Part shown: piece by piece, positions 15,314-64,000 of the stretch
How the letters are laid out: each line of letters opens with the position of its first letter
Position numbering within the stretch: the first letter of the stretch is position 1
Position numbers and translations under genes: made by a program
The notes under the pieces: generated by a model
What the model was told of the DNA's origin: nothing
Database searches by the model: none
The model's input: only the letters and a program-made list of their open reading frames with translations
IMG/VR virus record: IMGVR_UViG_3300042924_005659
Length of the DNA stretch: 64,000 bases
From: a virus
Strand: one strand, 5' to 3'

Positions 15314-15314
15314 A

Positions 15315-15770
15315 TTACACCGTGGAGATGGTCACAGGGACCAAGATTGTTGAAGAGTCTTGAAATGTGAAGCGCAAGGACATTACCGCAGAGTCCAGAG
15401 TGACACTGAGTCCCTCTAGGGCGACGTCCTCCAACGCCTCGTCGACACTAGGAGCAAGCACAGAGCTCTTTATGTAGTTGATTATGTCGTTCTTTTCAGA
15501 GTAAAAGGCAAAAGACAAAGCCAGGGAGGTATGTATCTGTCCGCCAAAAAGCTTTGTTACAAAAGAAGTGCCGTACTCTGGCTCGCTGGCCACAGATCCT
15601 TTATCGGTCATCAGGCACTTAAAGAACTTTTGCACTACTTTGTACGGACCGGATATAGCAGAGCCCGAGTCAGATATGGCGATATTGACTGGCGCTATAC
15701 CTCCATAGCTAGGAGTCTCTAGCACGCATACATCTACAGCTTTTCCTATGTAGGATTGGGATACGGCCAT
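15315..15770 (-). CDS. Baseplate wedge gp25-like (sheath initiator)
   Basis: 151 aa with 'KVVQKFFKCLMTDKGSVASEPEYGTSF', immediately upstream of baseplate J. Confidence 0.7.
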   Translation of the reverse strand: MAVSQSYIGKAVDVCVLETPSYGGIAPVNIAISDSGSAISGPYKVVQKFFKCLMTDKGSVASEPEYGTSFVTKLFGGQIHTSLALSFAFYSEKNDIINYIKSSVLAPSVDEALEDVALEGLSVTLDSAVMSLRFTFQDSSTILVPVTISTV

Positions 15771-16186
15771 TAGTCCTTACCCTCCTCTACTGCCAGGAAC
15801 TTCTCGACATTGGCTTGCATTGTCGCCAGCATTCCGGAGTTCTCGCGCTGAATGTTTTTGCGACGACCTGCCTCATCAAGAATTCTGTGTATTCTGTTTG
15901 AATACCTGAAAGCCATATCTCTATGTGCGGCAGCCACCATGTCGTGTTGCAGCTGGGCCTTCATGGCATCAAAGAATTTGAACTTGTCCTTGCCTACTGC
16001 GTCAAGAAACTCCTGGGCCAGTTCGTTTCTATCAAACTGCTTTACCAGGTCCGCTGGAGTGTTGTCGTACTCTTTAGGCTCCCAAAGCAGTCTGAACGAC
16101 CCAGAAGACAACACACCTCCGCCGCTGGCAGAGTTCTTGGTTGCCTCCTTGATGGCGTCAAATATCTTTTGAGCCGCAGAATTCAC
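15770..16186 (-). CDS. Hypothetical helical protein
   Basis: In-operon ORF coupled to the sigma gene (GTGA-type overlap); no recognised motif. Confidence 0.55.
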   Translation of the reverse strand: MNSAAQKIFDAIKEATKNSASGGGVLSSGSFRLLWEPKEYDNTPADLVKQFDRNELAQEFLDAVGKDKFKFFDAMKAQLQHDMVAAAHRDMAFRYSNRIHRILDEAGRRKNIQRENSGMLATMQANVEKFLAVEEGKD

Positions 16187-16932
16187 AAGCCTCTCCTGTT
16201 CAATTGAGCGTATTCATCTAATCTTGCTGCAATGGACGTCGTGAGCTGACTGACTCTGCCTGGGCTTATTTTCAGTTTTTTGGCAATGTCGTTATTGCTC
16301 AACATCTTCTTATTGTTGTAGCCTAGCTTGTGTTCGAGAATAACCTGCTCCTGCGGAGTGAACGAGCTATACATGGTGTCCAGTACGTCTTTTTGAAATC
16401 CTGGATTCTGGGCTACGGTAATCTCCTGAGAGGTCACTGGATTATCTCCGGAGAACGCCGTAGAGCCTTCGCTGAAGACTCGTTTGTCCATTCCACGAAT
16501 TTTATTTAGCTGTCGGACGGACATACCTGTCAGATCAGCGAGCTCTCCGTCGCTGGCCACTCTGCCTTTGTTCTCATAGAACTCGGCCTCGTATCTCTTA
16601 AGTGCACTGATCTGCTGGTAGGCCCTTTCAGGAACAGGAGATGGGGTGAGCTCTCTAGAGTATCTGCTGAGAGGCTGTAGCTGCGTATAGACCCAGCTGC
16701 GCAAAGACGACCCCGAATTAGGAGCGTATTTCTTTATTGCCTTGGCGGCCAATAACTTGGCTCTGGTCTTTACTGCAGGCCCAGCATTGAGTCCTGAGTA
16801 GGCGTACACAGCCTTATCGATATCTGGACCGAGCTGATCCAACATCGCCTGCATCTGCGTAGAGTTTTGGCCTTTGGACCAGACTGCGTACATATCATCA
16901 AGAGATTGTTTTTTAATTGGAATAGGGTCCAT
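16183..16932 (-). CDS. Sigma70-family RNA polymerase sigma factor (regions 2, 3, 4; no region 1)
   Basis: Region 2: KAIKKYAPNSGSSLRSWVYTQL; region 3: ENKGRVASDGELADLTGMS; region 4 HTH: FTPQEQVILEHKLG...SNNDIAKKLKISPGRVSQL. Confidence 0.85.
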   Translation of the reverse strand: MDPIPIKKQSLDDMYAVWSKGQNSTQMQAMLDQLGPDIDKAVYAYSGLNAGPAVKTRAKLLAAKAIKKYAPNSGSSLRSWVYTQLQPLSRYSRELTPSPVPERAYQQISALKRYEAEFYENKGRVASDGELADLTGMSVRQLNKIRGMDKRVFSEGSTAFSGDNPVTSQEITVAQNPGFQKDVLDTMYSSFTPQEQVILEHKLGYNNKKMLSNNDIAKKLKISPGRVSQLTTSIAARLDEYAQLNRRGL

Positions 16933-43471: not shown

Positions 43472-43499
43472 ATCATATCTTTGAATTATGCGAAGTCAA
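43472..43499 (-). promoter_or_regulatory. Possible promoter TTGACT-N16-TATGAT overlapping the MCP stop
   Basis: -35 at 43494-43499, -10 at 43472-43477; the start site would fall at the base of the hairpin. Confidence 0.4.
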
Positions 43500-44463
43500 C
43501 TCGGGAGACGGCTGCAGCATTTGCAATACCGCCACCAAGCATCTCGTAGGCGTACCAGGAGAGCATTGGACCTTCACGCTTGACGAACATGGTGGTGTCC
43601 TCAAGGAAGTAAAGGCGACCAAGGAACTCAGGTGCAGCAAAGAGGAACATGCTGTTGTTGGGGACGAGGTCGTCCTTAATGGTGGTGATCCAGTTGAGGC
43701 TGCACCACTTGGTTGCCTCGCCTGCCCAGCCATTGACCAGAATGTTCTGAGCCATGTCGCCACCGACTTCTTCACGAGTCCACTTCTCGAACTCGAGAGC
43801 AGTCTTCTGGTTGACAAGAGCGGTCTGAGGACGGAGGCGAGCGCCTGCGGTCATCATGAGCTTCTTGGCCTCAACGACGTTCTCACGAGTGAGACCGCCG
43901 GAGAGAGTCTTCCATAGCGTGATGTTGGTGCCGTTTGGACCGTAGGGAACTAGCTCGTTTGCGGTCATGAGGTCGTTGGAGAGCAGCGAATTGATCGTCT
44001 GGATGAACTTGCCGTCTTCCTCTGCCTGGAGATCCTTGAGCGCATTGTCGCTAATGACCTGACGGATGTCGAGATCATAGTCGTGAAGCTCCGCAACGTC
44101 CTTGTTGAACATTGGAGTTGCAATGCGGCTGAAGGTAACGAGCCAACGCTTACCGTAGATGTAGGTTCCGCTGGGGAACTCACCGAAGGGAATCGACATC
44201 GCTCCAGGTGAATCTGGCTCGAGTTCGACGACCTTGGACGGCTTATCGGTGGAGACCTGCTTGGTGAGGTCGTCGCCGGTAATGGTCTGAGCGGGGAGAA
44301 TCTTGCGGAGGAAACCCTCTTCACGAAGCTTCATGCGGATGTAATCCGACGTAGCGCGTGCAACTTTGATAGTTGACTCTGGGTTAAACTCCATCTGGTC
44401 GATGTGCTGACGAACTACTTGGTTCGCCCGCTTTTCCATATCTGAAAGATGTTCTAGTGCCAT
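43486..44463 (-). CDS. Major capsid protein (HK97 fold, encapsulin/linocin-like size)
   Basis: SDYIRMKLREEGFLRKILPAQTI...TPMFNKDVAEL...DIRQVISDNALKDLQAEEDGKFI; protease-scaffold-decoration-MCP gene order; AGGAG RBS; hairpin downstream. Confidence 0.85.
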   Translation of the reverse strand: MALEHLSDMEKRANQVVRQHIDQMEFNPESTIKVARATSDYIRMKLREEGFLRKILPAQTITGDDLTKQVSTDKPSKVVELEPDSPGAMSIPFGEFPSGTYIYGKRWLVTFSRIATPMFNKDVAELHDYDLDIRQVISDNALKDLQAEEDGKFIQTINSLLSNDLMTANELVPYGPNGTNITLWKTLSGGLTRENVVEAKKLMMTAGARLRPQTALVNQKTALEFEKWTREEVGGDMAQNILVNGWAGEATKWCSLNWITTIKDDLVPNNSMFLFAAPEFLGRLYFLEDTTMFVKREGPMLSWYAYEMLGGGIANAAAVSRVDFA

Positions 44464-45142: not shown

Positions 45143-45535
45143 TTAGCTGAGGAGAGCCTCGCACCAGGCCGACGAGGACTGGTTGCCAGGAACCGCAGCG
45201 GATTTTGCGGAAACAGAGGAAGGAACACCTACCGCAAGATTACGAGCCTGGCCCACTTCGGCCTGAAGGGCAGCAATCTTGTTGGTAAGAGACGCGATAG
45301 TCTTGAGAGCGCCATCATTTGTCATGATGTAGTTTGCGAACTCAGACTGACGAGCTGGATCAAGTCCAGCGTGTTTGACAAGGTCTGCAACCCGAGCTTC
45401 GGCTTCCTTACGAGAAACCGGGCTTGGAGTTGCAGTTGGCTGGGGTGCGGAGATAGTCGAAACCATCTCAGGCACACGCTCCATGAAAGATGCGATCTTT
45501 TCTAGCGCTTTAACTGGAATTTTAATATTACTCAC
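45143..45535 (-). CDS. Small head protein (K-x-A rich)
   Basis: 5 of 8 lysines are K-x-A. Confidence 0.55.
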   Translation of the reverse strand: MSNIKIPVKALEKIASFMERVPEMVSTISAPQPTATPSPVSRKEAEARVADLVKHAGLDPARQSEFANYIMTNDGALKTIASLTNKIAALQAEVGQARNLAVGVPSSVSAKSAAVPGNQSSSAWCEALLS

Positions 45536-47082: not shown

Positions 47083-47109
47083 AATGGTGTAGTTCCTTTA
47101 CGTTTGTAT

Positions 47110-48465
47110 TTATTCTACAGTGTTCTGACAAAATCCGCAAAAAATCAAATCATCTAGGTCGCTAGCGGAGGCAGCGGACTTGATGGAGTTAAGGGTCTCA
47201 AGCTGGTAACGAATATACTCTTTTGCCCAACTTGTGTCAATGTCGGAGGATAGCTTAATTGGGTTGGACTTTCCAATTTGAGTTCCGGCAATACGACCCA
47301 TCAACGGAGTAGTGACGGATCTGTACGGGCTAATGCTGGAGCACAGCTCTGCAATCTTGCCGGAAATCTTCATAGTTGCAGGCTCATACAGCGAGCTTGA
47401 AACTAGGTCGTCCGCATTAAATTCTCGTAAGGCGTCTGCAACAGCAGATTTATTAAAATTAGCAGCCTGACTAGAACTCAACTTAGATCCCGTCATTAAT
47501 GTGTAAAATTCTGCTGGACGCAGCATTACCCCATTATCAGACAATCCACGCATTACAGAGTCTAGGTGGGTTGGGATATAGCTAGATAGTTTCTTGACAA
47601 CGGTATCGACGTCTTCCTGATTATCTAGTACGACTGGGCGCATAACGCCGTCGATGCGCTTCTCCATCTTGGAGATTTTTTCAAGAATTTTACGCTTGTC
47701 TTCTGCTGACTTAAAGCTGCAATTAAGCGTAGCCTCTATACCTTGAATATCATTTAAAGTATAGCCTAGCTCTTCAGCTAAAGCAGCACCGCCTGCAACT
47801 CCAGTAGATGCTTTCTTTAAAGTATAAGCAACTCTATCGGCAGGACGAATAACTCTAGAGATATCGAAGAAGGTAGAGCTGGGATTATCCACTCCTACTA
47901 CCTTGCCGTCATCGAGAATCTTGCCCAAAGCTTCTTTGACGTGCCAGCAGTACTCTCGGGGAGTCTTTGCCTTATTAGAGCAAATTGAGCATACGTCGTG
48001 AGCGATTTTGCAAGCCATGGAGACCGGATAGCTGCCGTTGCGCTCTAACAAAGATAGCTCTTCGGCACACTTGGAGTTGTCGAGTTCCATAAGAAGCTCG
48101 ACTCTGTCCATGTCCTCGTTGTATACGGCAGCCTTTACAACGCCGTAGCTAGGATCCATAGGCGTATTCTTATGGTGCCGGAATACCTTGGCATGGCTGA
48201 TAAAAGTGGGGTGATCTCGTTGAAGATTGGCTCGTTTCCAGCCATCGCCGTTTCTGTTAAATCCGAACTTCTCGGAAGCAGTCATGGCAATAGTGTGAAC
48301 AGCCGTCTTGTCTCTCCCTGGAGTATAGCCCTCGATCAGGCGAGAGAACATATTTGCTCTCTTCTCCTGACCAGAGTCCAGACCCTTAGATGAGAATCTA
48401 AGGATCTCGAACGGAGCGTCGCTACCGAGGTTAAAGTGATCTGGGCTGAAAGCTTTGATAAACAT
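47110..48465 (-). CDS. Prohead maturation protease (HK97 gp4/assemblin-like fold inferred) with a Cys/His insert
   Basis: NRNGDGW...FRHHKN...GVVKAAVYN...VELLMELD...VSMACKIAHDVCSICSN...YCWH; position upstream of scaffold and MCP. Confidence 0.65.
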   Translation of the reverse strand: MFIKAFSPDHFNLGSDAPFEILRFSSKGLDSGQEKRANMFSRLIEGYTPGRDKTAVHTIAMTASEKFGFNRNGDGWKRANLQRDHPTFISHAKVFRHHKNTPMDPSYGVVKAAVYNEDMDRVELLMELDNSKCAEELSLLERNGSYPVSMACKIAHDVCSICSNKAKTPREYCWHVKEALGKILDDGKVVGVDNPSSTFFDISRVIRPADRVAYTLKKASTGVAGGAALAEELGYTLNDIQGIEATLNCSFKSAEDKRKILEKISKMEKRIDGVMRPVVLDNQEDVDTVVKKLSSYIPTHLDSVMRGLSDNGVMLRPAEFYTLMTGSKLSSSQAANFNKSAVADALREFNADDLVSSSLYEPATMKISGKIAELCSSISPYRSVTTPLMGRIAGTQIGKSNPIKLSSDIDTSWAKEYIRYQLETLNSIKSAASASDLDDLIFCGFCQNTVE

Positions 48466-48474
48466 TGGAGTTAC

Positions 48475-50948: not shown

Positions 50949-51841
50949 TGTTGCTCTATTTTACCCTGATTTTGATTTTCAACAAAACGAGGAGGATTAT
51001 TGGGATGTAGGGCTGCCAGGTCCTGATCAGAATACTGCCCCGATCTAATAGGATCTGCTGGCAAGGCATTGTGATTCATAAGACCAAAGGTGAAAGATTT
51101 CAGCATTACGCTGACGATCTGAGATGTAAAGGTATCGTCTTCCTTTACTCCACCGAAGATAGCCTCAATCTTCTTGCGCTCATTAATATTGTCCTTGGCT
51201 AGTCCAATAAGCTCGGTGGCATTTCTAGCATTAGGCATAATGCCGTTGGCAGCCTGGATACCCTTGGACAATACCAAGTTGTCAAATAATGTCTCAAAAA
51301 GCTTTTGCATCTGATGCTGAGAGCACTTCTCAATGGCTTCGATCATCTCTCGACCACCAAAGATAGCTACTCGTTTCCAGAAAGCCTCTGTGCTGAACGG
51401 AGCAGAGCGCATGATTGGCTCTATGACCCAACGGTTTAAGTAACCGTAATTAGTCAGGTTGTCCAAAACGTCAAAGAAGCATTTGACGTAGTATTCGACG
51501 ACAGGTGCTTCGTGCCCAACTACCTTTGCGACTTCCTCAAAGGAGTAGCTGGCTAGTACACGGGTGTCGACGTCCAGGCGATACGAAGGCCCATTCTCGT
51601 AGAGCATGAGAGCGTCAGCAATGTCTGGATGAGCGTCTTTGTACGCCTCGACAACGTCGACCGGCTCTTGGCGAATTACCTTGAGCAGTGCGTAGAGTTC
51701 TCTTACGTACTTATCGTCGTCCTTGCGGGGTTCACGCCATTCGTCTAGTAGTTTGACTACATAGTTATAGCGCCAGTCTGGACTTTTAAGTCTACGTGGT
51801 GCCGGCTGGCGATTCGATAAAGATACGTTTGCTCTACGCAT
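50945..51841 (-). CDS. Hypothetical helical protein
   Basis: In-operon ORF (PDWRYNYVVKL); not K-x-A enriched; no function recognised. Confidence 0.55.
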   Translation of the reverse strand: MRRANVSLSNRQPAPRRLKSPDWRYNYVVKLLDEWREPRKDDDKYVRELYALLKVIRQEPVDVVEAYKDAHPDIADALMLYENGPSYRLDVDTRVLASYSFEEVAKVVGHEAPVVEYYVKCFFDVLDNLTNYGYLNRWVIEPIMRSAPFSTEAFWKRVAIFGGREMIEAIEKCSQHQMQKLFETLFDNLVLSKGIQAANGIMPNARNATELIGLAKDNINERKKIEAIFGGVKEDDTFTSQIVSVMLKSFTFGLMNHNALPADPIRSGQYSDQDLAALHPNNPPRFVENQNQGKIEQQ

Positions 51842-51851
51842 TACGTCTTAT

Positions 51852-52430
51852 TTAGTCAGGCTTTTTAGTAAATCCAGCAGTCTGCTCAATTATGCCATCT
51901 CGGAGAGCTGGATGGACAGGGCTGTGGAGAGCTTTTGCTACACTACCAAAATAGCCTAGATTTTCTGGCTCTAGCTTTTTTAGCTTCTTAGCCGTATTAA
52001 ACTCCTCAGCAATTGCCTTAATGGCTTTTCTTCTAGCTAAGGTAGTTAATAATCCCCCTCCTAATGCTCCGCCTGCAGCGCCGATGATGGCGCCAAGGTG
52101 TTTATCGCCAAGTCCTGCTCCAATGCCGTACCCGGCTGGACCTCCGATTGAAGCTCCTCCTAACGTACCAGCAAGCATGCTCAGCATTGGATACTTTACA
52201 GTCCAACTAACGTCCTCTGACGGAATGCCTGCAGCCTCAGCTAGAACTTGCGATATGTTATTTCTAACATGAGCGTGTCCGTATAGAGGCATTAAGCCTG
52301 GAACTCCATAAAGATAATCTGCTACTACGTGCCCCGGGTGGTTAGGATCTCCGAAAGGAACATCTTCTGCTTTTAGTCTTGCGGCCTGCTTTAACAGCAT
52401 AGTGTGAACATTGTTTGCAATTTTGATCAT
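51852..52430 (-). CDS. Glycine-zipper membrane-active putative ejection protein (start revised to 52430)
   Basis: The ATG at 52430 lies 4 nt after the upstream stop; MIKIA...LLKQAA; hydrophobic LAGTLGGASIGGPAGYGIGAGLG...GAIIGAAGGALGGGLL. Confidence 0.55.
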   Translation of the reverse strand: MIKIANNVHTMLLKQAARLKAEDVPFGDPNHPGHVVADYLYGVPGLMPLYGHAHVRNNISQVLAEAAGIPSEDVSWTVKYPMLSMLAGTLGGASIGGPAGYGIGAGLGDKHLGAIIGAAGGALGGGLLTTLARRKAIKAIAEEFNTAKKLKKLEPENLGYFGSVAKALHSPVHPALRDGIIEQTAGFTKKPD

Positions 52431-52434
52431 AGTA

Positions 52435-54561
52435 TTACACCAATTGGTTAAGGTCTGTTTCAACTGCAGATCCAGAGTCAGACTGAATCTTACGTTCCTT
52501 GAGCTTAAGAATCAGCTCGCCTAAGTGATTAAAGGTATTACGAACCGACTCTTCCATGCTGGGAATATCTTCCTGGCTAAAGCGCTCAGAGAACTTATCG
52601 CCATGGAAAAGCATCAGGAAGTAGATACGACCGAGTCTGTCCAAGGCCTGATTGAGATCGACCATGTACTGATCCAATGGCGTATCGATGTCGGCTCTAT
52701 TGATCAGCTCAGAGATATTGGCTACGTCAAAGACATTGCGCTCGCCTGACTGAGCAGCCTGCATGATGTTGTCGACGGCCTGCTGATTCAAGGCCGGCTG
52801 AGTCTGGTTCATGCCGCTAATACCGTCTAGGACTCTCTGATTGAGCACGTTTCCAGGGGCGCCACTCATAGCACTCATAGTGTCGGCTTGCGGATACTGT
52901 TCCGGCACACCCAAAGTTGGATTCATGCCCATTGGGACTGGGGGAGTGTTCGGATTGAAGACCATGCCAGGATCAAAGAACGGGCCTTGAGCCTTTTTCT
53001 GGAAGGTATAGCTGGCCTCCTCTAGAGCAGCCGCCTTCTTCAAGGCGTCCTTGGCCGTATCAATGCCAAATCCTACGCCGGCAACCAAAGTTACATATGC
53101 GTCCCGGCGAGTGGCCTGCTTGAACAGCAGCTTGCCATTGCAAGTGGCGGTAAATCCGCTTCTGTCCTTGGCAACCTTAATTTCATCAAAGAGACCTTTG
53201 ATCTTTGCGTCGATATCTCGAGCGTCTCCAAGATCGATCTTTGGGCAGGAGTACATCTTCGCCTTGAACGAGTGTACCTTCGCTGCCTTTGGTACATACA
53301 GCGTATTGTCGATAAGTCGCATACGGCGATACGCTGGAGACACGACGACCTTCTCCATGGGGTAGCCGCCATAGTGAATCTTGTAAGTGGTGGCGCCGTC
53401 GAACTCAACCTTATCCGTTAGACAGAAAGGTGCAGACGCTTGAGATCCATCTGCCTCTACGAAGATATTGTAGGAGACTTGCTTATCGGAAACTCCGACA
53501 GTATCAGCAGTAGTCTTGGCGGACTCAGCCGAAGACAGCCCGTCCAAGAACTTCTTGAAGGCTTCAGTTCCGCCATCAAAAGAAGAAACAAAGGTCTTTA
53601 CAGACTCTACGCAGCAAGGTGTGACTTTGTCGTTGTCGGTAGGAATGAAGACGTGCTTGTTGAAGTTGTCTACTCCAAGCTCCGGCATCATTACGCCACG
53701 TGCAAACGCTCCGCCCTTCATGAGCAGGTCGTACACGCAGGCGCCGTCCACAGCGTTAAGCTTCATTGGGCGCTGAATCTTGTAGGGAATCTTTCCTTCG
53801 CCTCTATTGTCTCGAAGGACGATGCCCTCCTCCAGTAGCTCCTGCTTCTCCGAATCAGTCATTGATTCAAATACAGGTTGAGGGCTATTGGCGTCGATGA
53901 CCTCTACCTCTGGCACCTTCTCGTTGTCGAGCTGCTCGACTTTAGCCTGCTTGCATGAGCTAAGAGCCTCATACAACTCCTCGCCATAGGCTTCAGAAGC
54001 AAGCTTGTGCAGTCTTGGATTCTGCATTAGCGTACGAGTGTAGATATCCGCCAGACGGCAGTCAGCCTGCTTTAAAAACGACGGAAACGTCCAGTCAAAG
54101 TTGACGGCCAAGCTCTGCATCTTATCCATGCTGAGCTTGGTGTTAATGGTTGGATTGTAGATTTTGCTTAGATCCAAACCTGACTGCATGCCGACCATGA
54201 CATCGCCACGGGACATGCCTGAAGGCTCTCCCAGTTCCTCTGGACGAGAGTTGAGCAGAGTGTCAACCCAGTTTTCCTTGTTGGGTACGAACTTGTCCTG
54301 ATTCTGATTGTAAAGCAGCTCAGCGCCCTTTAGCTCTCCGTTCTTGTAGAAGACAGGAACGAACAACTGACGACCAGCTACGTCAAACTTGAACAAGCCG
54401 ATGGCCTGAGTGCCTTCGTCGTTCTTGTTTACGACCTCGAAGCCAAGCATGTAGTCGAGCAAATTGGGAATCTTGTCCCGAATGTAGGCAAAAGCCAGCT
54501 GAAAGAAATTCTGCTCGAATGATGCGTCGTCCGCAAGTTTAATGAGATTCTTTCTAGGCAT
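52435..54561 (-). CDS. Large head-module protein (K-x-A rich), function unknown
   Basis: 708 aa; KLA, KQA, KLA, KQA, KVA, KQA, KKA motifs; Met/Pro/Gln-rich segment near the C-terminus. Confidence 0.55.
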   Translation of the reverse strand: MPRKNLIKLADDASFEQNFFQLAFAYIRDKIPNLLDYMLGFEVVNKNDEGTQAIGLFKFDVAGRQLFVPVFYKNGELKGAELLYNQNQDKFVPNKENWVDTLLNSRPEELGEPSGMSRGDVMVGMQSGLDLSKIYNPTINTKLSMDKMQSLAVNFDWTFPSFLKQADCRLADIYTRTLMQNPRLHKLASEAYGEELYEALSSCKQAKVEQLDNEKVPEVEVIDANSPQPVFESMTDSEKQELLEEGIVLRDNRGEGKIPYKIQRPMKLNAVDGACVYDLLMKGGAFARGVMMPELGVDNFNKHVFIPTDNDKVTPCCVESVKTFVSSFDGGTEAFKKFLDGLSSAESAKTTADTVGVSDKQVSYNIFVEADGSQASAPFCLTDKVEFDGATTYKIHYGGYPMEKVVVSPAYRRMRLIDNTLYVPKAAKVHSFKAKMYSCPKIDLGDARDIDAKIKGLFDEIKVAKDRSGFTATCNGKLLFKQATRRDAYVTLVAGVGFGIDTAKDALKKAAALEEASYTFQKKAQGPFFDPGMVFNPNTPPVPMGMNPTLGVPEQYPQADTMSAMSGAPGNVLNQRVLDGISGMNQTQPALNQQAVDNIMQAAQSGERNVFDVANISELINRADIDTPLDQYMVDLNQALDRLGRIYFLMLFHGDKFSERFSQEDIPSMEESVRNTFNHLGELILKLKERKIQSDSGSAVETDLNQLV

Positions 54562-55867: not shown

Positions 55868-57727
55868 CTAGTAAGTGCCTTTAGGGCCCTTTGAGATTTC
55901 TCCAGTAGCCAAGGCGGGAATCCAAGATGTGCCGTGGATTTGAGATGTGGATCCACGTTGCACGTTATCCAAGAATGTCTTTTTAAGGTTAAATCCTCCG
56001 AGCTGGACCATCCAGTCTCGATCTCCAATAAGTGACATCATGGCTCTCGTCATGGTTGGCTTAAATGGAGGAGGATTTTTATGCGCAACCACTTCATTGA
56101 ATCCGTTTTCTTTTAGCTCCTTAGCAACACTTGGAGTTATACGGGTTCCAATCGAATAGTGCAAAATTGGCTTCTCTAAAAAGTGATTTAGATACTTGCC
56201 TGGCTCCCCAGATACGAATCCCTGTCTGGGTTCGTAGCGAGATGCAAGATAGTCGTAGCTGACCAAATCTTCAGGATACGTGCCAGGAACTACGTCCGGC
56301 TCTGTAATTTCCACCTGATTGATAAGCCCACGAGCCACGACTTCTACGTTTCTACGATGTGCTGGCAGGCCGTTCTCTTGTAGGGCAGACTTGAACTGCT
56401 GGACAAAACGGCGTCTAGCCTCGCCAATGCCTTTTAATTCTGCCAAATCTTTAGGATTGACTATGCCGTCTGAGAGTGCATCTCCGGCTTCAATGGACTG
56501 GCCTGGCTTGACGGTTACGGCTTGATCTGTAGGCACATAGTATTTTTCATTATTTACGTGAACGTAATTACCGCCCTGTGGAGCAGGTTCGATCTTACCT
56601 ACAATGCCATCTGCAGTCGTGACAGGAGCGCCGTCAGTAAAGGTTTTTGGAACTTCTACTAATTGGTTTAAATAGTTAAATCCGGTAACACTGCGCTTAG
56701 CTTTGCCCTTTGCAACACCGCCACCGTGCTTTGAGTTAAGCATGCCTTGGCTTACAGGTTCAGCAATTGCCTGAGCGGCAGTGATGCCGACATTCATGCC
56801 GGTCTCGGCCAACTTACCGTGCTCTCTGACGCCTGCCGCCCAGCGAGGCAATCCGTTCATTGCGCTGACAGCGGCAATGGGAGAATAGATCATAAGTCTC
56901 TTTTTACCTGCTTGGGACAAAGACTTAAGAATGCTGGAGTCCAAGTATGTACCCTTCTTGAACTCTCCTTCGTCTCTAGCCAATATGGAGCCCATGTTGT
57001 CTGGGTCATCCGTATCAACCATCAGACCCTGGCCATCCTCGATATCCTCGTCTGTGACTACCAAGCGGTGAGCTGCGCCTGTAAGACGCTTGGCAAAGTA
57101 GCCTGCGTCACCTACTGCCAGTTTTACATCGATGGCGCCTGAGCGAGCACCGTAGGAGCCAGCCCAGTACTCGACCGGATCTACGCCCTCGGAGTAAGAA
57201 TTGACGACTGGGATTGGAACCGGGCGACCCTTGTTGTCGCTATACATCAAGTCGGTGCCAATCATGGAAGACAACTGATTCTTGTTTCCACGGGCGCCTG
57301 CGTAAACCTGCATGGCAAAGGGATTCTCGGACTTCAAGGCCTCGTCGTACACCGAGTCAACCAGGTTGTCCTGGTACTTCAAGGTCGCATCTACAATCGC
57401 GGCGTCTCTCTGCTCGGGATCCTTTACGGTGCGTAATATGGTTCGAACGTCCTTTTTAAGAGCGTCGGTGATCTTGCTCTTGGCCTTGGTAGGCTTGAGG
57501 CTTTCCAAGGTAAAGCTGGATAGAGGCGACTGTCTTGCGCTCTTTAGACCAATTAGAGTCAGCTTCTGCACCATGTCCTTGTAGTCATCTGGCTTCATTG
57601 AAGTAGCCATCTGAGTAAGGAACTTGCGCATAGAGGACTTGTCCCAGACTCGAGCGTGGTCTCGGTGTTCCTCGGGAAGCGATGAATTGATGAGCAGTTG
57701 ACCTACTGTGGTTATCGATGGTTCCAT
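55868..57727 (-). CDS. rpoC: DNA-directed RNA polymerase beta-prime subunit, C-terminal half (split rpoC; bridge helix and trigger loop; no NADFDGD)
   Basis: TTVGQLLINSSLP; GARGNKNQL; bridge helix YWAGSYGARSGAIDVKLAVGDAGYFAKRL; trigger loop GITAAQAIAEPVSQGMLNSKHGGG; TGFNYLNQLVEVPK; SBHM VKPGQSIEAGDALSDGIVNPKDL; RRNVEVVARGL. Probable start MEPSITT at 57727 (track start 57751). Confidence 0.9.
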   Translation of the reverse strand: MEPSITTVGQLLINSSLPEEHRDHARVWDKSSMRKFLTQMATSMKPDDYKDMVQKLTLIGLKSARQSPLSSFTLESLKPTKAKSKITDALKKDVRTILRTVKDPEQRDAAIVDATLKYQDNLVDSVYDEALKSENPFAMQVYAGARGNKNQLSSMIGTDLMYSDNKGRPVPIPVVNSYSEGVDPVEYWAGSYGARSGAIDVKLAVGDAGYFAKRLTGAAHRLVVTDEDIEDGQGLMVDTDDPDNMGSILARDEGEFKKGTYLDSSILKSLSQAGKKRLMIYSPIAAVSAMNGLPRWAAGVREHGKLAETGMNVGITAAQAIAEPVSQGMLNSKHGGGVAKGKAKRSVTGFNYLNQLVEVPKTFTDGAPVTTADGIVGKIEPAPQGGNYVHVNNEKYYVPTDQAVTVKPGQSIEAGDALSDGIVNPKDLAELKGIGEARRRFVQQFKSALQENGLPAHRRNVEVVARGLINQVEITEPDVVPGTYPEDLVSYDYLASRYEPRQGFVSGEPGKYLNHFLEKPILHYSIGTRITPSVAKELKENGFNEVVAHKNPPPFKPTMTRAMMSLIGDRDWMVQLGGFNLKKTFLDNVQRGSTSQIHGTSWIPALATGEISKGPKGTY

Positions 57728-58602
57728 GGCGTGAGTACCTCGCTGCCACACTGAGTCTTGATTACCTTGTAATGAGAGTATGGCGCAGCAAGAGCCAAAG
57801 AACTCTGCTTGCCAAACACTCCGGACATATCAGGGCCAAACCAGTCTATGGCTTTATTGGCAATAAACTCGTAGCCAGGCATTCTGGAGCCCATACCTAA
57901 TAAGAATTGTCCAAGTCCTCGCAACTGTCTACCGAAGCTACCCATGCCGGAAGTCCAGTCATCGATCTTATTGGACATATGCGTAGTGGCAGCATTTGCC
58001 ATTAAAGATCTAACCAACGGAGAGTTTCTATCCAAGCTACCCATGATAGCTTGTGGCATCTGGCTAAACTGCTGATTTGCAGCGCTTTGCCCTACTACTG
58101 TTCCTAGCTGTGCTCCAGATCGCAATCCAAATGGATCCCATTGCCCGCTAGCCGTAGTGGCAAAAGGATTGGCATTTAGTCTAGTTGCACCTGCCGCTAC
58201 TCCCTGGAGAGTTGGTCCCGCTCCAAGTCTTGCAGCATTGGTGTATCCGCCTACTGCTTGGACTGGATCTATACCTTGCAGCAATTGACCTGCGTATGGG
58301 CTGAAGTTACCAGAAGCAAATCCTCTAACTGCTGCAGGATCCTGAGACATCTGCAGTGCTCTTTGCCCCAAGGAGCTAAGTCCTTGCATGTACTCAGGAC
58401 TGAATCCCCGGGTTTTAATTGCTTGATTGTATTCCGCAGATCCTGGTCTTAAATGGCCATAGGCCTGCAGATCCTTGGATAGAGCAGAGCCCCAAGCCTG
58501 AGTATCAGTAGGAGATACATTAGGAGGCATAAGACTGCCTTGAAAGGCAGGCGGAGTGTAGGCTTGCTTTATTAGAAATTGTTTAAGCAGGGGATCCATC
58601 AC
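57712..58602 (-). CDS. Gly/Ala/Gln-rich putative internal or ejection protein
   Basis: LLKQFLIKQAY start; low-complexity body; amphipathic C-terminal helices. Confidence 0.45.
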   Translation of the reverse strand: MMDPLLKQFLIKQAYTPPAFQGSLMPPNVSPTDTQAWGSALSKDLQAYGHLRPGSAEYNQAIKTRGFSPEYMQGLSSLGQRALQMSQDPAAVRGFASGNFSPYAGQLLQGIDPVQAVGGYTNAARLGAGPTLQGVAAGATRLNANPFATTASGQWDPFGLRSGAQLGTVVGQSAANQQFSQMPQAIMGSLDRNSPLVRSLMANAATTHMSNKIDDWTSGMGSFGRQLRGLGQFLLGMGSRMPGYEFIANKAIDWFGPDMSGVFGKQSSLALAAPYSHYKVIKTQCGSEVLTPWNHR

Positions 58603-59324: not shown

Positions 59325-62300
59325 TTACCTACGCCCAATTTCTATATTTGGACCTGGGTTTATTTCTCCATCAGCTATACCGCCTACTTCTGGGAAAACT
59401 TGAACAATAAGGCCAGGTCTTGAGTAGGTTATCTTTGGCGCAGATGGAGGTTTGATAATAAATGCTGGAATACATACTTCAGTCTTAGACACTGTCAGTA
59501 TATTGCTAACTCCGAGGAACGTATTCACGGTACGCAAGGTTGGAGTATTTACGCGACTTACTGCAGAAGCCTGACCACTTAGGGAGATGGTTGGACTTAG
59601 TGAACCTGTTACTGCCAGCTTGCACTCTATCAACGCAAACTTAATAGTAATGTAGGCTCCCAAAGATGCAGAAAGTCGGCTAATGCAATTAATTGGCAGC
59701 GGTACAGTACCGGGCGACAAGACTGTTAAATCCGGTGGAAGATCAGAAACTCCGAGACATCCGTAGACCGGATCGCAATCCGCTGGCGCGAAGAGACCCA
59801 ATTTCGAGCTAGCAGATCCTCTGAGCCCCATGTTTACCTTGCAGAAAACTGAGCCTGTGGTCAAAGCAGGAGTCAAAGGCGCAGCGGGCAGCGCTCTTTG
59901 CTTTGGCAATGAAACAGACGCTACATTGCATATCGCTGCTATCGCCTTAGTAGGCATTATCTTTGTAGTGCTATTTGGACTTAGATCGGCCGCAGCAACT
60001 AAAGATGTTGCAGCGATAGGTAGCGTCAACGCATTTGTGGTTACTCCTACCGTGAATCCAAACTCCGCCAAGATAGGAGCATGATTGACTTCGATGCTTC
60101 CCGTAGCGGTGGTGCGCTTGCTGTTATGCTTTAATCCTAGCTCAAACATACCAAGCCACGTTTCGGCTCGTCCGTTATTTGCAGTCAATCTATTGGAGTC
60201 GAGCGTTAGGAAAGGATCATCCAGCAGATCCAAACTATAGATCGAGCTTAGAGTGTCGTAGCTAGCAGGAGCTGCCTTGTACGGGTGATTGTTTGGCAGA
60301 TTGGCCTGTAGATTAAACTTGTGGGCCAAGTAGCCTTCGACGATTTGAATGTCCTCGTCGCTAAGGCGTCCTTCGACCACTACGACCTCTGCATAAGTAT
60401 CATTAGTATCGTGGAGATTGACTGTGGTTGTGCCTGTTGTGCCGGCAATTCCTCCGCCTAGGTGATATCCAACGCCTATACCAGTAGCTGGCATATAAGT
60501 AGTCGCGTTCTGCACGTTCCATGTAGTGACTGGCGTGCCATTGACTCTCAGGCCTCTATCTGCCAACCCCCCATAATAGCCACACAATACTCCAGGATTA
60601 GTGTTCACTGCCGTAGCTGCCGTATCGTATGTAGATCCCATGAAGAGCACTGGTCTGCCTAAGCCAAATCCAATTCCTTGTACCTTGGGATTTCCTGCTC
60701 CAGGTAGAGCATACTTTCCTATAGCTGCGTGTATATCTGCAGCGTTTGCAGGCTTTTGATACACCAGGAAATAGGTAAATGAGGATTCGGCCACTGAGGC
60801 AGGGGCATATAGCTTGTCCGCAGTACTGTTATCGAACTGTGCGCCTCGGAAGGACGTATTGAATGTAGCGACATTGGGTTGCGCTGCAGGAACGCCTTCA
60901 GCTAAGGTAATCGATTCAGTCGTAATGCTATTAGACCAACTGGAAATAGCTTGACCTACCGTAGAGGACAAGCTTTCGTATTTAAACCAAGCTCTGACTC
61001 CTAGATTTGCAGGAGTTACAGGCCCAGGATTAGCAACTCTTCCGCCAGTCCTTGCTGAACGAAGATCTGACCCTACATACTCGAGTTTAGCGCTTCCTCC
61101 GTAAGTGTTACGAATGAAGCTAGGAGAAATAAAGTCATTTGACGAGCTCAGCGTAATTGCCGAAGCATTGTCTGACGCCGACGTAACACGTACAGATCCA
61201 TAGGAATTCAGAATAGTCGATTCAAAGCCCGTGCCATTCTTGGCTGCAATTACAAAGTCCGCCGGCTGGCTTAGATCCGAGCCCATATTGGATCCGTCGC
61301 GGAATACTCTTTGAATGCCGATCTTGGAGTCCAGATTCAAGGCAAACAACGAAGCAGAGTTTACTGTGCAGGATACTCCGCGAGGAACAATGCTTAGAAC
61401 GTACTGAGAGTCTAGGAATGTTGCAGCACCTGGCCAAGTATCGAGGGCTAGGAACGTTTCAGCAAAGTGAACAGGATCGTTGATTGAATACAACGAGGAC
61501 TGCCCTACTGCAGAGAATCGGCGGATCGTCGTCTTCTGGCCGTCGAAGTATCTGTCGAGGTATACGTCTACAGACCAAGAATCTGTAACTCCTGGAATTC
61601 CAGAAATATAAGACAAAGCAATATTGGAATAGTCGAACTGCTGCAGTCTTGGTAAGACGTCCTGCAAAGACTCATCTGGCAAAGAGAAATACTGTTTTTG
61701 CGCAGTATTGACTTTGTAGAACTCTGGGTTAAGAGACGTAGACACGTCATCGTAGCCCCACTGTACTAAGTCTCCAGTGCTCTTCAGTGCATATATCTGC
61801 CCTCTGTAGGTATCTAGCTGAGAGACAACGTCGCCAAATATAAGACCCGACGAGGCCACGTTACGAATTGCAAGAGCCTCTGCCGGAGGAGAGTATAGAA
61901 GCGCGTTACAGCTAGCAGGCACTAGGTCTCCGCCAAATACGATAACTTCGTCATCTGTACTTACGATTACGCTATAGCCTGCCCCATATGGGAATCTGGT
62001 GCTTCTTTGGAAGTGGTATTGGTATCGCCCCGCAGCCACCAGCTTAGCCTTCCTGCTACCGCCTCTACGGAATGCAGTAGGTACGTTAGTGGCATTTGAT
62101 ATTGTGCCTTGCCGCACGCCAAATCCTAGTAAGGCCTGTACAGCCTCTACTACAGGCTCTCTATTTGGATAAATTTCTGATATAGGGGCGTTTATAGCAT
62201 AAGGGTGATCTAATGGCAGTATGGCTGGGCACAAAGCTCCAGCCCGGTGAATAATGTATCCCTCTAGCCTATCGCTATAGTTAGTTCTGTAGCTAGGATC

Positions 62301-64000
62301 ATCGGGAGTCTTCTCGCTCAACGAGTTATCTACAAACGCAACTACTCTTTGATCTGTACTTCCCGTACCTCCAACGTAACTGGTAATTTCGAATCCAGTC
62401 GACGTCATTGCATACGCGGTGAACTCGCCGCCTGCGACAGCCGGGCAATTGAATCCCTTATTTTCTCCAGAGTAGGAGAAGCCTGGTACATTGCATTGGC
62501 CCTTGCTGTTATCTCCGAAGGCTAAAATATCTCCGGCATTGACTGCAAAAGTACCGCCTGGCACAAATTGAGAGTAGCTTGAAGAGGCTCTGCCGACTAT
62601 GTGTGCTTTACCTGCACTTACAGTTGAGAATTGAATATCGAAATAAGGAGCCGGAATAGTCGATATAGAGCCCCAGGCAAGCAGCTTGTTAGTGGATGCG
62701 TTTATGGCTACGGTGAAGGTATCTCCGCAAGCAACCATAGAGTACGTGCCTGCGGGACTGACAGCCTGTCCTTGCGTGTTGCTACCCCAGCACGCCACTG
62801 TCCCATCTGCTCTTAATGCTGCAGCGTGGCGATTTCTGGAACTTACCGATGTAAAAGTGCTGCCAGTTGGGACAGTCAAAGCACCGTCTGAACCGGCACT
62901 ACCCCAAGCAACCAGAGTTCCTTGTGTAGCGTTGTACGTGGCTGCCTTGATTGCGTAGTAAGAATTGCTGCCTGCGGCAACGGCAATTGCGTGCTCAAGC
63001 CCGGTTAGCTGGGAGCTGGAGTAGTATCTACTCGTGGTCTTAGCTCTTATAGATGCAGGAATTGCGTTATATGCTGCAGTGAACTCTGCTTGAGTTGGCG
63101 CAGCAACAACAACATGTTTGTATGGGCCTACTTGAGTAATGGTAGTAGGGTTAAAAGATACAGTGCGTCTAGTGTTTGCATCTGGTACCGCTGTGTAGTA
63201 CGGCGCACCAGTATCTCCCCAAGAAACCATGGTTCCACCTGTACCCGTCGTACGAACAGCGACAGCGTAGTACGAGGACCAACCAGTGCCTAGCTTGATA
63301 TAGGATCCTGCTGGAGTGCTAGTGACTAGAGTTCCATACCAGTCCGCTCCCCACGAAGCTAAAGTATTATCGGACTTAATTGCTACAGTGTGATAGTAGC
63401 CTGCGGCGATATCCAAACATCCAGTGCCCAATCCGACAGGATTCGTGGTCTGCCCATGGCCATTATCGCCCCAGCAAACTACTGCACCATTAGACTTGAG
63501 AGCAACAGTGTGATAGGCGCCAGCAACTATCTTTACAACGTTAGATTGAGCGTTGACCGGTACGTTCAACTGACCTGAGCCATTGTCACCCCAGCAGACA
63601 ACTTTACCATTAGTTGTAAGGGCAGCAAAGTGTCTCTTACCGCCAACTACTTTAGTACATACTCCTAAATCTGAGGGGGGTGTCAATAAGCCATCGTAGT
63701 CTGCTCCCCAGCAGACTACCGTACCATCTGTTTGCTTTATACCTGCAGCAGTGTATTCAGCTATGGCTACATCGGTGAAGTCAAAATTGGGAACACTTCG
63801 TATCGGGGCAGGTAGATTACCTCCATTAAATCCAACTACAGTAGCGCGAGAGTCGGACTTAAGAACAATAGATCCCTCTATAGCGCTAACTACTTTTTGA
63901 CAGGTAATAGATATATCTGCCGCATCTGCTCTTTGAGAGTTGTAGTTCTGGCCCCAGCTAAAAATAGTGTTATTGGACTTAACTGCATAGGCGCACTTCT
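59325..64000 (-). CDS. Large RCC1-repeat / LamG-like adhesin-type protein, 5' truncated by the window edge
   Basis: Many RCC1-like repeats (VAAGYYHTVAIKSD..L..WG). The frame stays open beyond the track's TTG start to the window end (KCAYAVKSNNTIFSWGQN...GTVVCWGADYDGLLTPP). A LamG-like region ends EGYLAHKFNLQANLPNNHPYK. Confidence 0.8.
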   Translation of the reverse strand, partial: KCAYAVKSNNTIFSWGQNYNSQRADAADISITCQKVVSAIEGSIVLKSDSRATVVGFNGGNLPAPIRSVPNFDFTDVAIAEYTAAGIKQTDGTVVCWGADYDGLLTPPSDLGVCTKVVGGKRHFAALTTNGKVVCWGDNGSGQLNVPVNAQSNVVKIVAGAYHTVALKSNGAVVCWGDNGHGQTTNPVGLGTGCLDIAAGYYHTVAIKSDNTLASWGADWYGTLVTSTPAGSYIKLGTGWSSYYAVAVRTTGTGGTMVSWGDTGAPYYTAVPDANTRRTVSFNPTTITQVGPYKHVVVAAPTQAEFTAAYNAIPASIRAKTTSRYYSSSQLTGLEHAIAVAAGSNSYYAIKAATYNATQGTLVAWGSAGSDGALTVPTGSTFTSVSSRNRHAAALRADGTVACWGSNTQGQAVSPAGTYSMVACGDTFTVAINASTNKLLAWGSISTIPAPYFDIQFSTVSAGKAHIVGRASSSYSQFVPGGTFAVNAGDILAFGDNSKGQCNVPGFSYSGENKGFNCPAVAGGEFTAYAMTSTGFEITSYVGGTGSTDQRVVAFVDNSLSEKTPDDPSYRTNYSDRLEGYIIHRAGALCPAILPLDHPYAINAPISEIYPNREPVVEAVQALLGFGVRQGTISNATNVPTAFRRGGSRKAKLVAAGRYQYHFQRSTRFPYGAGYSVIVSTDDEVIVFGGDLVPASCNALLYSPPAEALAIRNVASSGLIFGDVVSQLDTYRGQIYALKSTGDLVQWGYDDVSTSLNPEFYKVNTAQKQYFSLPDESLQDVLPRLQQFDYSNIALSYISGIPGVTDSWSVDVYLDRYFDGQKTTIRRFSAVGQSSLYSINDPVHFAETFLALDTWPGAATFLDSQYVLSIVPRGVSCTVNSASLFALNLDSKIGIQRVFRDGSNMGSDLSQPADFVIAAKNGTGFESTILNSYGSVRVTSASDNASAITLSSSNDFISPSFIRNTYGGSAKLEYVGSDLRSARTGGRVANPGPVTPANLGVRAWFKYESLSSTVGQAISSWSNSITTESITLAEGVPAAQPNVATFNTSFRGAQFDNSTADKLYAPASVAESSFTYFLVYQKPANAADIHAAIGKYALPGAGNPKVQGIGFGLGRPVLFMGSTYDTAATAVNTNPGVLCGYYGGLADRGLRVNGTPVTTWNVQNATTYMPATGIGVGYHLGGGIAGTTGTTTVNLHDTNDTYAEVVVVEGRLSDEDIQIVEGYLAHKFNLQANLPNNHPYKAAPASYDTLSSIYSLDLLDDPFLTLDSNRLTANNGRAETWLGMFELGLKHNSKRTTATGSIEVNHAPILAEFGFTVGVTTNALTLPIAATSLVAAADLSPNSTTKIMPTKAIAAICNVASVSLPKQRALPAAPLTPALTTGSVFCKVNMGLRGSASSKLGLFAPADCDPVYGCLGVSDLPPDLTVLSPGTVPLPINCISRLSASLGAYITIKFALIECKLAVTGSLSPTISLSGQASAVSRVNTPTLRTVNTFLGVSNILTVSKTEVCIPAFIIKPPSAPKITYSRPGLIVQVFPEVGGIADGEINPGPNIEIGRR

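What the first reader, a model, noticed from the sequence alone, without database searches (positions are those of the whole stretch)
55868..57727. Split, zinc-site-less, cell-like RNAP beta-prime C-half embedded among head cargo genes
Seen: the protein begins at the TTVG motif (close to but before the cyanobacterial rpoC1/rpoC2 break), keeps the bridge helix and trigger-loop His (SKHGGG), has only about 10 aa where E. coli has SI3, and contains no cysteine. The four ligands of the beta-prime C-terminal Zn site (E. coli DDCGT and RS...C...VC..CYG) read DEDIED and YSPIAAVSAMNGLPRWAAG. No beta or NADFDGD-bearing partner is in the 64 kb, and the gene is flanked by K-x-A cargo genes. Known: phiKZ/AR9-like phages encode split multisubunit RNAPs, some virion-packaged, but far more diverged from cellular enzymes. 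Inference: a distinct phage transcription system, with an oxidation-proof virion-packaged subunit pairing with partners encoded elsewhere (or with host subunits) and the baseplate-encoded sigma.
Basis: partly seen in the sequence, partly recalled or inferred. Interest (0 to 1): 0.8.

Follow-up and report, generated by a model that had tools for sequence, protein, structure and literature searches.

The report
Zinc-free phage RNA polymerase back half
This gene encodes the rear half of the beta-prime subunit of a large lake phage's own bacterial-type RNA polymerase; it has lost its zinc site and every cysteine, its partner chain is encoded elsewhere in the genome, and the enzyme is probably carried inside the virus particle.

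Summary
Window 55868-57727 (minus strand) encodes a 619-aa beta-prime C-terminal half. It starts at TTVG and keeps the bridge helix and trigger-loop His. It has no SI3 and no cysteine. The four C-terminal Zn ligands read I229/A286/P294/A297.

It is not an orphan. A 91%-identical relative and a complete 183-kb relative each carry one gene fusing all of beta to the NADFDGD-bearing front of beta-prime. That fusion ends where this protein begins. The visible contig is only about 53% complete.

The closest cultured homologues are Salmonella phage Arash gp216, gp206 and sigma gp10, which are abundant in Arash virions (PMC10585845). Head-module synteny and a sigma-like gene (16183-16932) are conserved here.

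Across 105 homologues, all but two have exactly four cysteines (the ligands) or none. One ancient loss is not rejected (AU p 0.48).

Virion packaging and any adaptive reason for cysteine loss remain inferences. K-x-A enrichment is absent from this gene and its immediate neighbours.

The scan has reported this cysteine-free, zinc-free two-chain phage polymerase before on other DNA, and my independent tests agree. I rate it a new variant of a known kind.

The parts
55868..57727 (-). beta-prime C-terminal half (619 aa, zero Cys) of a two-chain phage RNA polymerase
   Evidence: Pfam Rpb1_5 at E 2e-21. PDB beta-prime chains at E 8e-34. AlphaFold model with pLDDT 87; Foldseek TMq 0.70-0.72 to T. thermophilus beta-prime. 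Full-length homology to Arash gp216 at E 4e-58.
57701..57712 (-). TTVG motif at residues 6-9, marking the split point (E. coli beta-prime about 571)
   Evidence: Alignment with E. coli RpoC and orthologues. The partner fusion ends at about E. coli 550.
57083..57199 (-). bridge helix region (residues 177-215)
   Evidence: Alignment. Model helix at 184-219.
56837..57043 (-). former Zn-cluster region; ligand positions are now I229, A286, P294 and A297
   Evidence: Column mapping to E. coli C814/C888/C895/C898. Model pLDDT is 92-94 across residues 220-300.
56654..56800 (-). trigger loop (residues 310-358) with invariant His334 and a 10-aa tip where E. coli has SI3
   Evidence: Low pLDDT at residues 342-344 is consistent with a mobile loop tip.
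57712..58602 (-). upstream 296-aa ORF whose stop overlaps the target's start by 16 nt (likely translational coupling); function unknown
   Evidence: ORF list. No Pfam or PHROG hit. Conserved upstream of the gene on all contigs that carry the exact protein.
16183..16932 (-). sigma-70-like factor (249 aa, zero Cys), the likely specificity subunit of this polymerase
   Evidence: Sigma70_r3 at 27.6 bits against a cut-off of 25.3, plus a region-4 HTH. Homologous to Arash sigma gp10 at E 4e-9. Sits next to homologues of Arash gp12-14.
52435..54561 (-). homologue of Arash virion protein gp218; K-x-A enriched
   Evidence: tblastn at E 1e-12. K-x-A 12 observed against 4.1 expected, p 6e-4.
47110..48465 (-). 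head-maturation-protease-like protein, homologue of Arash gp222
   Evidence: 40% identity, E 2e-35. phrog_18299 head maturation protease at E 6e-5.
43486..44463 (-). major capsid protein
   Evidence: 30% identity to Arash MCP gp226, E 8.5e-30. phrog_2522 major head protein.

Best explanation
The gene encodes the C-terminal half of beta-prime (bridge helix, trigger loop, funnel and jaw region) of the phage's own bacterial-type RNA polymerase.

How the enzyme is built:
- It has two chains. The first chain is all of beta joined head-to-tail to the front of beta-prime. It carries the NADFDGD Mg site and ends about 85 residues after that motif.
- The second chain is this protein, which starts about 15 residues further along the E. 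coli numbering. Nothing is missing between them.
- A phage sigma-70-like protein (window 16183-16932) most likely gives promoter specificity.
- No alpha or omega homologue is encoded.

Zinc status:
- The N-terminal beta-prime zinc ribbon is deleted in the whole family.
- In this clade the four Cys of the C-terminal zinc cluster are replaced by I/A/P/A, while loop length and predicted fold are kept.
- The core enzyme should therefore fold without structural zinc.

Shown here: identity, fold, motifs, the partner in close relatives, the sigma homologue, synteny, purifying selection, and the 4-or-0 cysteine rule.

Inferred: the enzyme is packaged in the capsid and delivered with the DNA for early transcription, as suggested by the virion proteome of the cultured relative Arash. 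Also inferred: cysteine and zinc loss suits a protein that must survive outside the cell and refold after ejection.
For: Identity and fold:
- Pfam, PDB and fold matches.
- Motif alignment.

Partner chain:
- The complete 183-kb relative G001 (80% identity) and G003 (91% identity) each carry one ORF with Rpb2_6 and Rpb1_2, 34-37 kb upstream of their beta'-C gene.
- The junctions are exact and the zinc ribbon is deleted.
- A 1640-aa fusion protein, P0209, lies on 172-177 kb contigs from the same kind of samples. My exact protein lies on 174-176 kb contigs.
- The P0209 gene length, 4923 nt, equals the feature an earlier scan note places in this same genome.

One RNAP set, no alpha or omega: G001 has a single set and no alpha or omega homologue.

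Links to Arash:
- Full-length homology to Arash gp216.
- Arash gp206 has a beta plus beta'N architecture.
- Arash gp206, gp216 and gp10 give 3516, 1210 and 467 spectra in virions. My arithmetic puts that at about 2.3, 2.0 and 2.0 spectra per residue.
- Head-module synteny and the sigma homologue.

Cysteine rule and selection:
- 103 of 105 homologues of 600-660 aa have exactly 4 or 0 Cys.
- Arash gp206 has 1 Cys in 1525 residues and the G003 fusion has 3 in 1638, against a contig proteome average of 1.3%.
- dN is 0.06-0.17 with synonymous sites saturated, and dN/dS is 0.11 in the one unsaturated pair.
Against: - There is no proteomic or biochemical data for this phage or its clade.
- The Arash virion list holds 116 of 272 proteins, including obvious replication enzymes. 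The authors themselves allow for co-purification.
- The partner gene could not be read directly from the visible 91.9-kb record.
- Several other large virion-module ORFs here are also Cys-free. Zero Cys in 619 aa is therefore low but not unique.
- Trigger-loop Arg933 of E. coli is not conserved: it is Asn here and Gly in Arash.
- This gene lacks the K-x-A signature that marks several downstream head proteins.
Confidence: 0.82

Rival explanations
1. It is an ordinary intracellular (non-virion) phage RNAP subunit used for middle or late transcription. Cysteine and zinc loss is neutral drift, made possible because the split-and-fused architecture no longer needs the zinc cluster for assembly.
For: - The Arash 'structural' proteome includes many enzymes and may contain contaminants.
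- The gene has no K-x-A signature.
- Other proteins in the module are also Cys-free.
- Zn-retaining and Zn-free relatives coexist at 43-47% identity.
Against: - The family-wide 4-or-0 cysteine rule over sequences diverged to 43% identity, and the near-absence of Cys in the about 1600-aa partner, argue for selection rather than drift.
- The position inside the head module is conserved between this phage, Arash and D69.
- gp206 is the protein with the most spectra in Arash virions.
Confidence: 0.13
2. The protein pairs with host beta and a host beta-prime fragment, or otherwise modifies the host RNAP, rather than forming a phage enzyme.
For: No partner lies in the 64-kb window or the visible 91.9-kb record.
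Against: - Close relatives encode a dedicated partner whose C-terminus abuts this protein's N-terminus in E. coli numbering.
- The visible record is only about 53% complete.
- Identical proteins lie on 174-176 kb contigs.
- Host beta-prime is not split, so no free site exists for this half.
Confidence: 0.03
3. It is a decaying or catalytically irrelevant remnant, or a fragment of a host rpoC on a mis-binned bacterial contig.
For: Loss of a zinc site that is conserved in bacterial beta-prime, and even in phiKZ gp74 (PMC8287921), could be read as decay.
Against: - Strong purifying selection, with 45 invariant columns including His334.
- A confident full-length model.
- Only about 23% identity to bacterial RpoC.
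- The contig is a dense one-strand phage structural module with MCP, protease and tail genes.
Confidence: 0.02

Closest known systems
RNA polymerase of Salmonella phage Arash (gp206 beta-beta'N, gp216 beta'C, sigma gp10; PMC10585845) and Vibrio phages D69/D148/D181
   Same: - Two-chain layout and split point.
- Full-length homology (26-29% identity, E 4e-58 for gp216).
- N-terminal zinc ribbon deleted.
- Almost no non-ligand cysteine.
- A sigma homologue beside the tail/baseplate genes.
- The beta'C gene sits upstream of the protease and MCP.

   Different: - Arash and D69 keep the four Cys of the C-terminal zinc cluster and read AADYDGD at the Mg site.
- This clade has I/A/P/A at the ligand positions, and its partner reads NADFDGD.
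- Arash has a helicase gene right after gp216, which is absent here.
Cyanobacterial and plastid split beta-prime (rpoC1/rpoC2)
   Same: Beta-prime is cut between the Mg-site half and the bridge-helix/trigger-loop half, within about 10-20 residues of the same place (chains 8h3v_B, 8syi_Z, 8qma_B).
   Different: - The cyanobacterial front half is a separate gamma subunit, not fused to beta.
- The back half carries a very large SI3.
- The zinc cysteines are kept there (this last point is from my own knowledge, not tested here).
phiKZ and AR9 multisubunit phage RNAPs (PMC8287921, PMC7618050, PMC9209446, PMC7824862)
   Same: - Phage-encoded beta/beta-prime homologues with beta-prime split before the bridge helix.
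- One set is virion-packaged.
- AR9 also lacks the N-terminal zinc domain.
   Different: - Those enzymes have 4-5 chains with beta also split, two paralogous sets, and no sigma homologue. Here there are two chains, one set and a sigma homologue.
- phiKZ gp74 keeps the four-Cys cluster.
- Sequence and fold similarity to them is far lower than to bacterial beta-prime.
Natural rpoB-rpoC fusions of Helicobacter and Wolbachia (own knowledge)
   Same: The beta C-terminus is joined directly to the beta-prime N-terminus. Full bacterial-type fusions of 2258-2261 aa appear as distant hits (P0192/P0193).
   Different: The bacterial fusions keep beta-prime whole and keep both zinc sites. Here beta-prime is cut again after the Mg site.
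Zinc-free 'C-minus' paralogues of zinc-ribbon ribosomal proteins (own knowledge: Makarova, Ponomarev and Koonin 2001)
   Same: A structural four-Cys zinc site is replaced by ordinary residues while the fold and loop length are kept.
   Different: It is a different protein family. Those paralogues serve zinc limitation inside cells. No such link is shown here.

Membership tests
Bacterial-type msRNAP beta-prime, C-terminal half (Pfam RNA_pol_Rpb1_5) | Rpb1 domain 5 profile match above the curated cut-off | tested here: met
   77.1 bits against a cut-off of 28.5, E 2e-21.
Bacterial-type msRNAP beta-prime, C-terminal half (Pfam RNA_pol_Rpb1_5) | Bridge helix, and a trigger loop with the catalytic His | tested here: met
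   Residues 177-215 and 310-358. His334 is invariant in 59 sequences.
Bacterial-type msRNAP beta-prime, C-terminal half (Pfam RNA_pol_Rpb1_5) | Overall fold superposable on solved beta-prime | tested here: met
   Model pLDDT 87 and pTM 0.73. Foldseek E 7e-29 and TMq 0.70-0.72 over about 650 columns.
Bacterial-type msRNAP beta-prime, C-terminal half (Pfam RNA_pol_Rpb1_5) | Four-Cys zinc cluster (E. coli C814/C888/C895/C898) | tested here: not met
   I229/A286/P294/A297 and zero Cys in the protein. This makes it a variant, not a standard member.
Arash-type two-chain phage RNAP | Full-length homology of the beta'C chain to Arash gp216 / D69 0264 | tested here: met
   E 4e-58 over residues 1-619. 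tblastn at 4e-52 to D69.
Arash-type two-chain phage RNAP | A partner chain fusing beta to the NADFDGD-bearing front of beta-prime in the same genome | tested here: inconclusive
   Met in G001 (complete, 80% identity) and G003 (91% identity). Not readable in the visible 53% of this genome. Indirect support comes from P0209 on 172-177 kb contigs and the scan note e1-5816131.
Arash-type two-chain phage RNAP | Phage sigma-70-like factor homologous to Arash gp10 | tested here: met
   Window 16183-16932: Sigma70_r3 above the cut-off, and E 4e-9 to gp10.
Arash-type two-chain phage RNAP | beta'C gene inside the head module, upstream of the protease and MCP | tested here: met
   Shared order with Arash gp216, gp218, gp220, gp222 and gp226.
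Arash-type two-chain phage RNAP | Both chains and sigma present in purified virions | not testable with these tools
   Known only for Arash, by LC-MS.
phiKZ/AR9-type phage msRNAP | Beta and beta-prime split into 4-5 polypeptides, two paralogous sets (virion and non-virion), and no sigma homologue | tested here: not met
   One fusion gene plus one beta'C gene in the complete relative. A sigma homologue is present. For the definition, see the reviews.

The most novel reading that the evidence does not exclude
The window clade's polymerase is a fully functional multisubunit RNAP core with no structural zinc and no cysteine at all in its beta'C chain. On this reading it is the phage's only RNAP and is sigma-dependent. 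It is packaged in the capsid and threaded into the host with the DNA, and cysteine and zinc loss is an adaptation to surviving outside cells and refolding without a metal after ejection. That would make it a natural counter-example to the view that beta-prime zinc sites are universal and needed for assembly. It would also be a third, cell-like lineage of virion RNAPs beside the N4/crAss-type and phiKZ-type enzymes.
Probability: 0.35. Interest if true: 0.8.

Novelty: new variant of a known kind. Interest (0 to 1): 0.62.

Why it matters
In E. coli the C-terminal beta-prime zinc cluster is regarded as a folding and assembly scaffold (my recollection of Markov et al. 1999, not checked here). Recent structural papers call beta-prime zinc domains a shared feature of all multisubunit RNAPs (PMC7618050). 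Even the very divergent phiKZ enzyme keeps this cluster (PMC8287921).

This family offers a natural matched pair. Zn-retaining and Zn-free enzymes of 43-47% identity share the same two-chain layout. That makes the role of the zinc site directly testable.

The system is also a cell-like, sigma-using phage RNAP. Current jumbo-phage reviews do not cover it (PMC7824862, PMC13282480). It is abundant in metagenomes and has cultured handles in Arash and the Vibrio D69-type phages.

Tried and rejected
1. The giant ORF upstream (59325-63998+) as the missing partner. It has no similarity to Arash gp206. It is an RCC1-repeat protein of 4030 aa on full contigs.

2. The upstream 296-aa ORF as a missing beta-prime piece. 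It has no family hits, and the junction analysis shows nothing is missing.

3. Repeated independent loss of the zinc site.
- A FastTree tree nested the window clade inside Zn-retaining clades.
- An IQ-TREE tree needed 3 changes.
- The AU test did not reject one clade of all Cys-free proteins (delta lnL 0.98, p 0.48).
- I withdrew the claim. The shared P..A replacements fit a single loss.

4. Reading the partner directly from this genome.
- The visible record lacks it.
- The 174-kb records are not held by the genome tool.
- The metagenome scan did not list the window's own scaffold.

5. A Sigma70_r2 profile search of the genomes gave only sub-threshold hits. The sigma gene was found instead through synteny with Arash.

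6. The geometry of the four replaced residues could not be measured, because model coordinates are not exposed.

7. A literature search for the E. coli zinc-ligand residues found nothing in the held library.

Full report
**1. What is there**

All genes in the window's right half run on the minus strand. The finding's coordinates hold an ORF from ATG 57727 to stop 55868, 619 aa. A GAGG lies about 10 nt upstream of the ATG. The stop of the preceding 296-aa ORF overlaps the start by 16 nt.

Pfam places residues 181-476 in RNA_pol_Rpb1_5 (E 2e-21, 77 bits against a cut-off of 28.5). It gives a weak Rpb1_4 match before that. phmmer against PDB returns 94 beta-prime chains. The best are SI3-less enzymes of Clostridia, Thermus and Bacillus (E 8e-34).

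An AlphaFold model built on 59 family sequences is confident (mean pLDDT 87, pTM 0.73). It superposes on T. thermophilus beta-prime over its whole length (Foldseek E 7e-29, TMq 0.70-0.72). Matches to phiKZ-like phage subunits are much poorer (TMq 0.28-0.45).

**2. The residue-level claims hold**

Aligned with E. coli RpoC, the protein shows:
- A start at M-E-P-S-I-TTVG, matching E. coli at about 566-574.
- GARGN at 144-148.
- The bridge helix at 177-215.
- A trigger loop ending in KHGGG. His334 is invariant in the family alignment.
- Ten residues where E. coli carries SI3.

It has no cysteine. E. coli ligands C814, C888, C895 and C898 correspond to I229, A286, P294 and A297. The loop between the last three positions keeps its length. 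The region is modelled at pLDDT 92-94.

Cyanobacterial RpoC2 chains align from their residues 6-15 to query residues 26-28. The split therefore lies about 10-20 residues before the cyanobacterial one.

**3. The missing partner**

The visible record is an IMG/VR contig of 91,930 bp that CheckV rates 53% complete. It holds no Rpb1_2 domain and no homologue of Arash gp206.

Close relatives settle what the partner is:
- G003 has a beta'C that is 91% identical to the target.
- G001 has one that is 80% identical. G001 is 183,468 bp with terminal repeats and is rated 100% complete.
- Each has a single ORF carrying Rpb2_6 and Rpb1_2, 34-37 kb upstream of its beta'C gene.

In this fusion the beta C-terminus runs straight into the beta-prime N-terminus with no linker. 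NADFDGD is intact. The chain ends about 85 residues later, near E. coli 550, just before the TTVG start of the second chain. The beta-prime N-terminal zinc ribbon (E. coli about 68-98) is deleted in the whole family.

G001 has one RNAP set only, with no detectable alpha or omega.

For this phage itself:
- The identical beta'C protein lies on 174-176 kb contigs from JGI, ENA and NCBI samples.
- A 1640-aa fusion protein (P0209, 88% cluster) lies on 172-177 kb contigs.
- Its gene length, 4923 nt, equals the feature that scan note e1-5816131 places in this same genome.
- I could not read both genes from one record myself.

**4. Relatives with biology**

The nearest cultured homologues are Salmonella phage Arash gp216 (26% identity over the full length, E 4e-58) and Vibrio phages D69, D148 and D181. 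Arash gp206 and D69 0261 show the same beta plus beta'N architecture by Pfam.

The Arash paper reports LC-MS of virions. Gp206 has the most spectra (3516). Gp216 has 1210 and sigma Gp10 has 467. The authors caution that abundant enzymes may co-purify (PMC10585845). Per residue, by my arithmetic, these are about 2.3, 2.0 and 2.0. That would fit an equimolar complex.

Gene order is shared between this phage and Arash:
- beta'C.
- A gp218-like protein (52435-54561).
- A gp220-like protein (49653-50948).
- A protease-like protein (47110-48465, 40% identity to gp222).
- The MCP (43486-44463, 30% identity to gp226).

Homologues of Arash gp12-14 lie at window 12360-15770. The ORF beside them, 16183-16932, is a sigma-70-like protein. 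Its Sigma70_r3 match is above the cut-off, it has a region-4 HTH, and it matches Arash gp10 at E 4e-9.

**5. The cysteine rule**

Among 105 database homologues of 600-660 aa (43-93% identity), 36 keep all four ligands and 69 have none. All but two have exactly 4 or exactly 0 cysteines. Longer homologues with more cysteines carry intein or Hint domains.

The partner chains are almost Cys-free too: Arash gp206 has 1 in 1525 residues, D69 has 2, and G003 has 3 in 1638. The contig's proteome averages 1.3%.

The Cys-free state shows replacement patterns xAPA (this clade), xGYD and one other. A FastTree tree and an IQ-TREE tree placed the window clade beside Zn-retaining groups. However, the AU test does not reject a single clade of all Cys-free proteins (p 0.48). 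One ancient loss is as good an explanation as several.

The gene is under strong purifying selection. dN is 0.06-0.17 with synonymous sites saturated, and dN/dS is 0.11 in the only unsaturated pair.

An unsplit relative exists. P0190 (2150 aa) has beta and whole beta-prime in one chain, with the zinc cysteines kept.

**6. Literature**

Two broad reviews of jumbo-phage biology describe only the phiKZ/AR9-type multisubunit enzymes. Both state that these lack sigma homologues (PMC7824862, PMC13282480).

phiKZ gp74 keeps the four-Cys cluster (C288, C341, C350, C353; PMC8287921). [quoted passage not shown]

I found no paper that analyses the Arash-type enzyme or its zinc loss.

**7. What is not supported**

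- The K-x-A motif is enriched in five genes further downstream (p from 0.0065 to 2e-6). It is not enriched in this gene (4 observed, 3.8 expected) or in its immediate neighbours.
- Pairing with host subunits has nothing in its favour once the dedicated partner is seen.
- Virion packaging and the reason for cysteine loss remain inferences for this phage.

**8. Relation to the rest of the scan**

Other follow-ups have reported the same cysteine-free, zinc-free two-chain polymerase on other genomes, and the fusion chain on this genome. My tests were run independently and agree.

New here are:
- The AU test, which tempers any claim of repeated loss.
- The exact 4-or-0 tally.
- The K-x-A result for this gene.
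- The comparison with phiKZ gp74.

Noticed in passing
L016:3783-9902 (minus strand; G001 fusion gene, residues about 762-1167): The beta-beta'N gene of the complete relative carries a roughly 396-aa insertion that is absent from G003. It starts with Cys, ends ...HN followed by Thr, and has two LAGLIDADG-like motifs. It looks like an intein with a homing endonuclease inside the RNAP beta part. The database copy (P0144) carries Pfam PF14528 and PF14890.
   Followed up: partly
proteins P0034, P0043, P0058, P0073, P0108: Several beta'C homologues are 150-420 aa longer and carry LAGLIDADG, Hom_end_hint or Hint domains. Inteins therefore also invade the second chain of this polymerase.
   Followed up: no
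window 59325-63998 (minus strand, runs off the window): A giant ORF upstream of the RNAP gene has RCC1 repeats. On full-length contigs it is 4030 aa (2844 aa in one variant). It is unrelated to Arash gp206.
   Followed up: partly
window 293-1324 (minus strand): A 343-aa ORF has 43 cysteines (12.5%), in sharp contrast to the Cys-poor virion module.
   Followed up: no
P0190 / L047:3605-10057: A single-chain form (2150 aa) holds beta and the whole of beta-prime unsplit and retains the zinc cysteines. It sits on a 14-kb metagenome contig whose neighbours have no Pfam hits. It may be an earlier or re-fused state of the family.
   Followed up: partly
window 45143-54561: K-x-A (Lys with Ala at +2) is significantly enriched in five head-module ORFs. 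The strongest are 49653-50948 (13 observed against 3.0 expected, p 2e-6) and the protease-like 47110-48465 (12 against 2.9, p 1e-5). It is not enriched in tail genes, the MCP, sigma or the RNAP chain.
   Followed up: partly
window 37655-38965 (minus strand): A collagen-repeat tail-fibre-like protein (Pfam Collagen and many PHROG tail fibre families).
   Followed up: no
whole record: The genome record offered to the tools (91,930 bp) is shorter than the piece the scan's notes refer to, which has features up to 83 kb before the window start. Identical proteins lie on 174-176 kb contigs. 'Own genome' searches therefore see only about half of the phage.
   Followed up: partly
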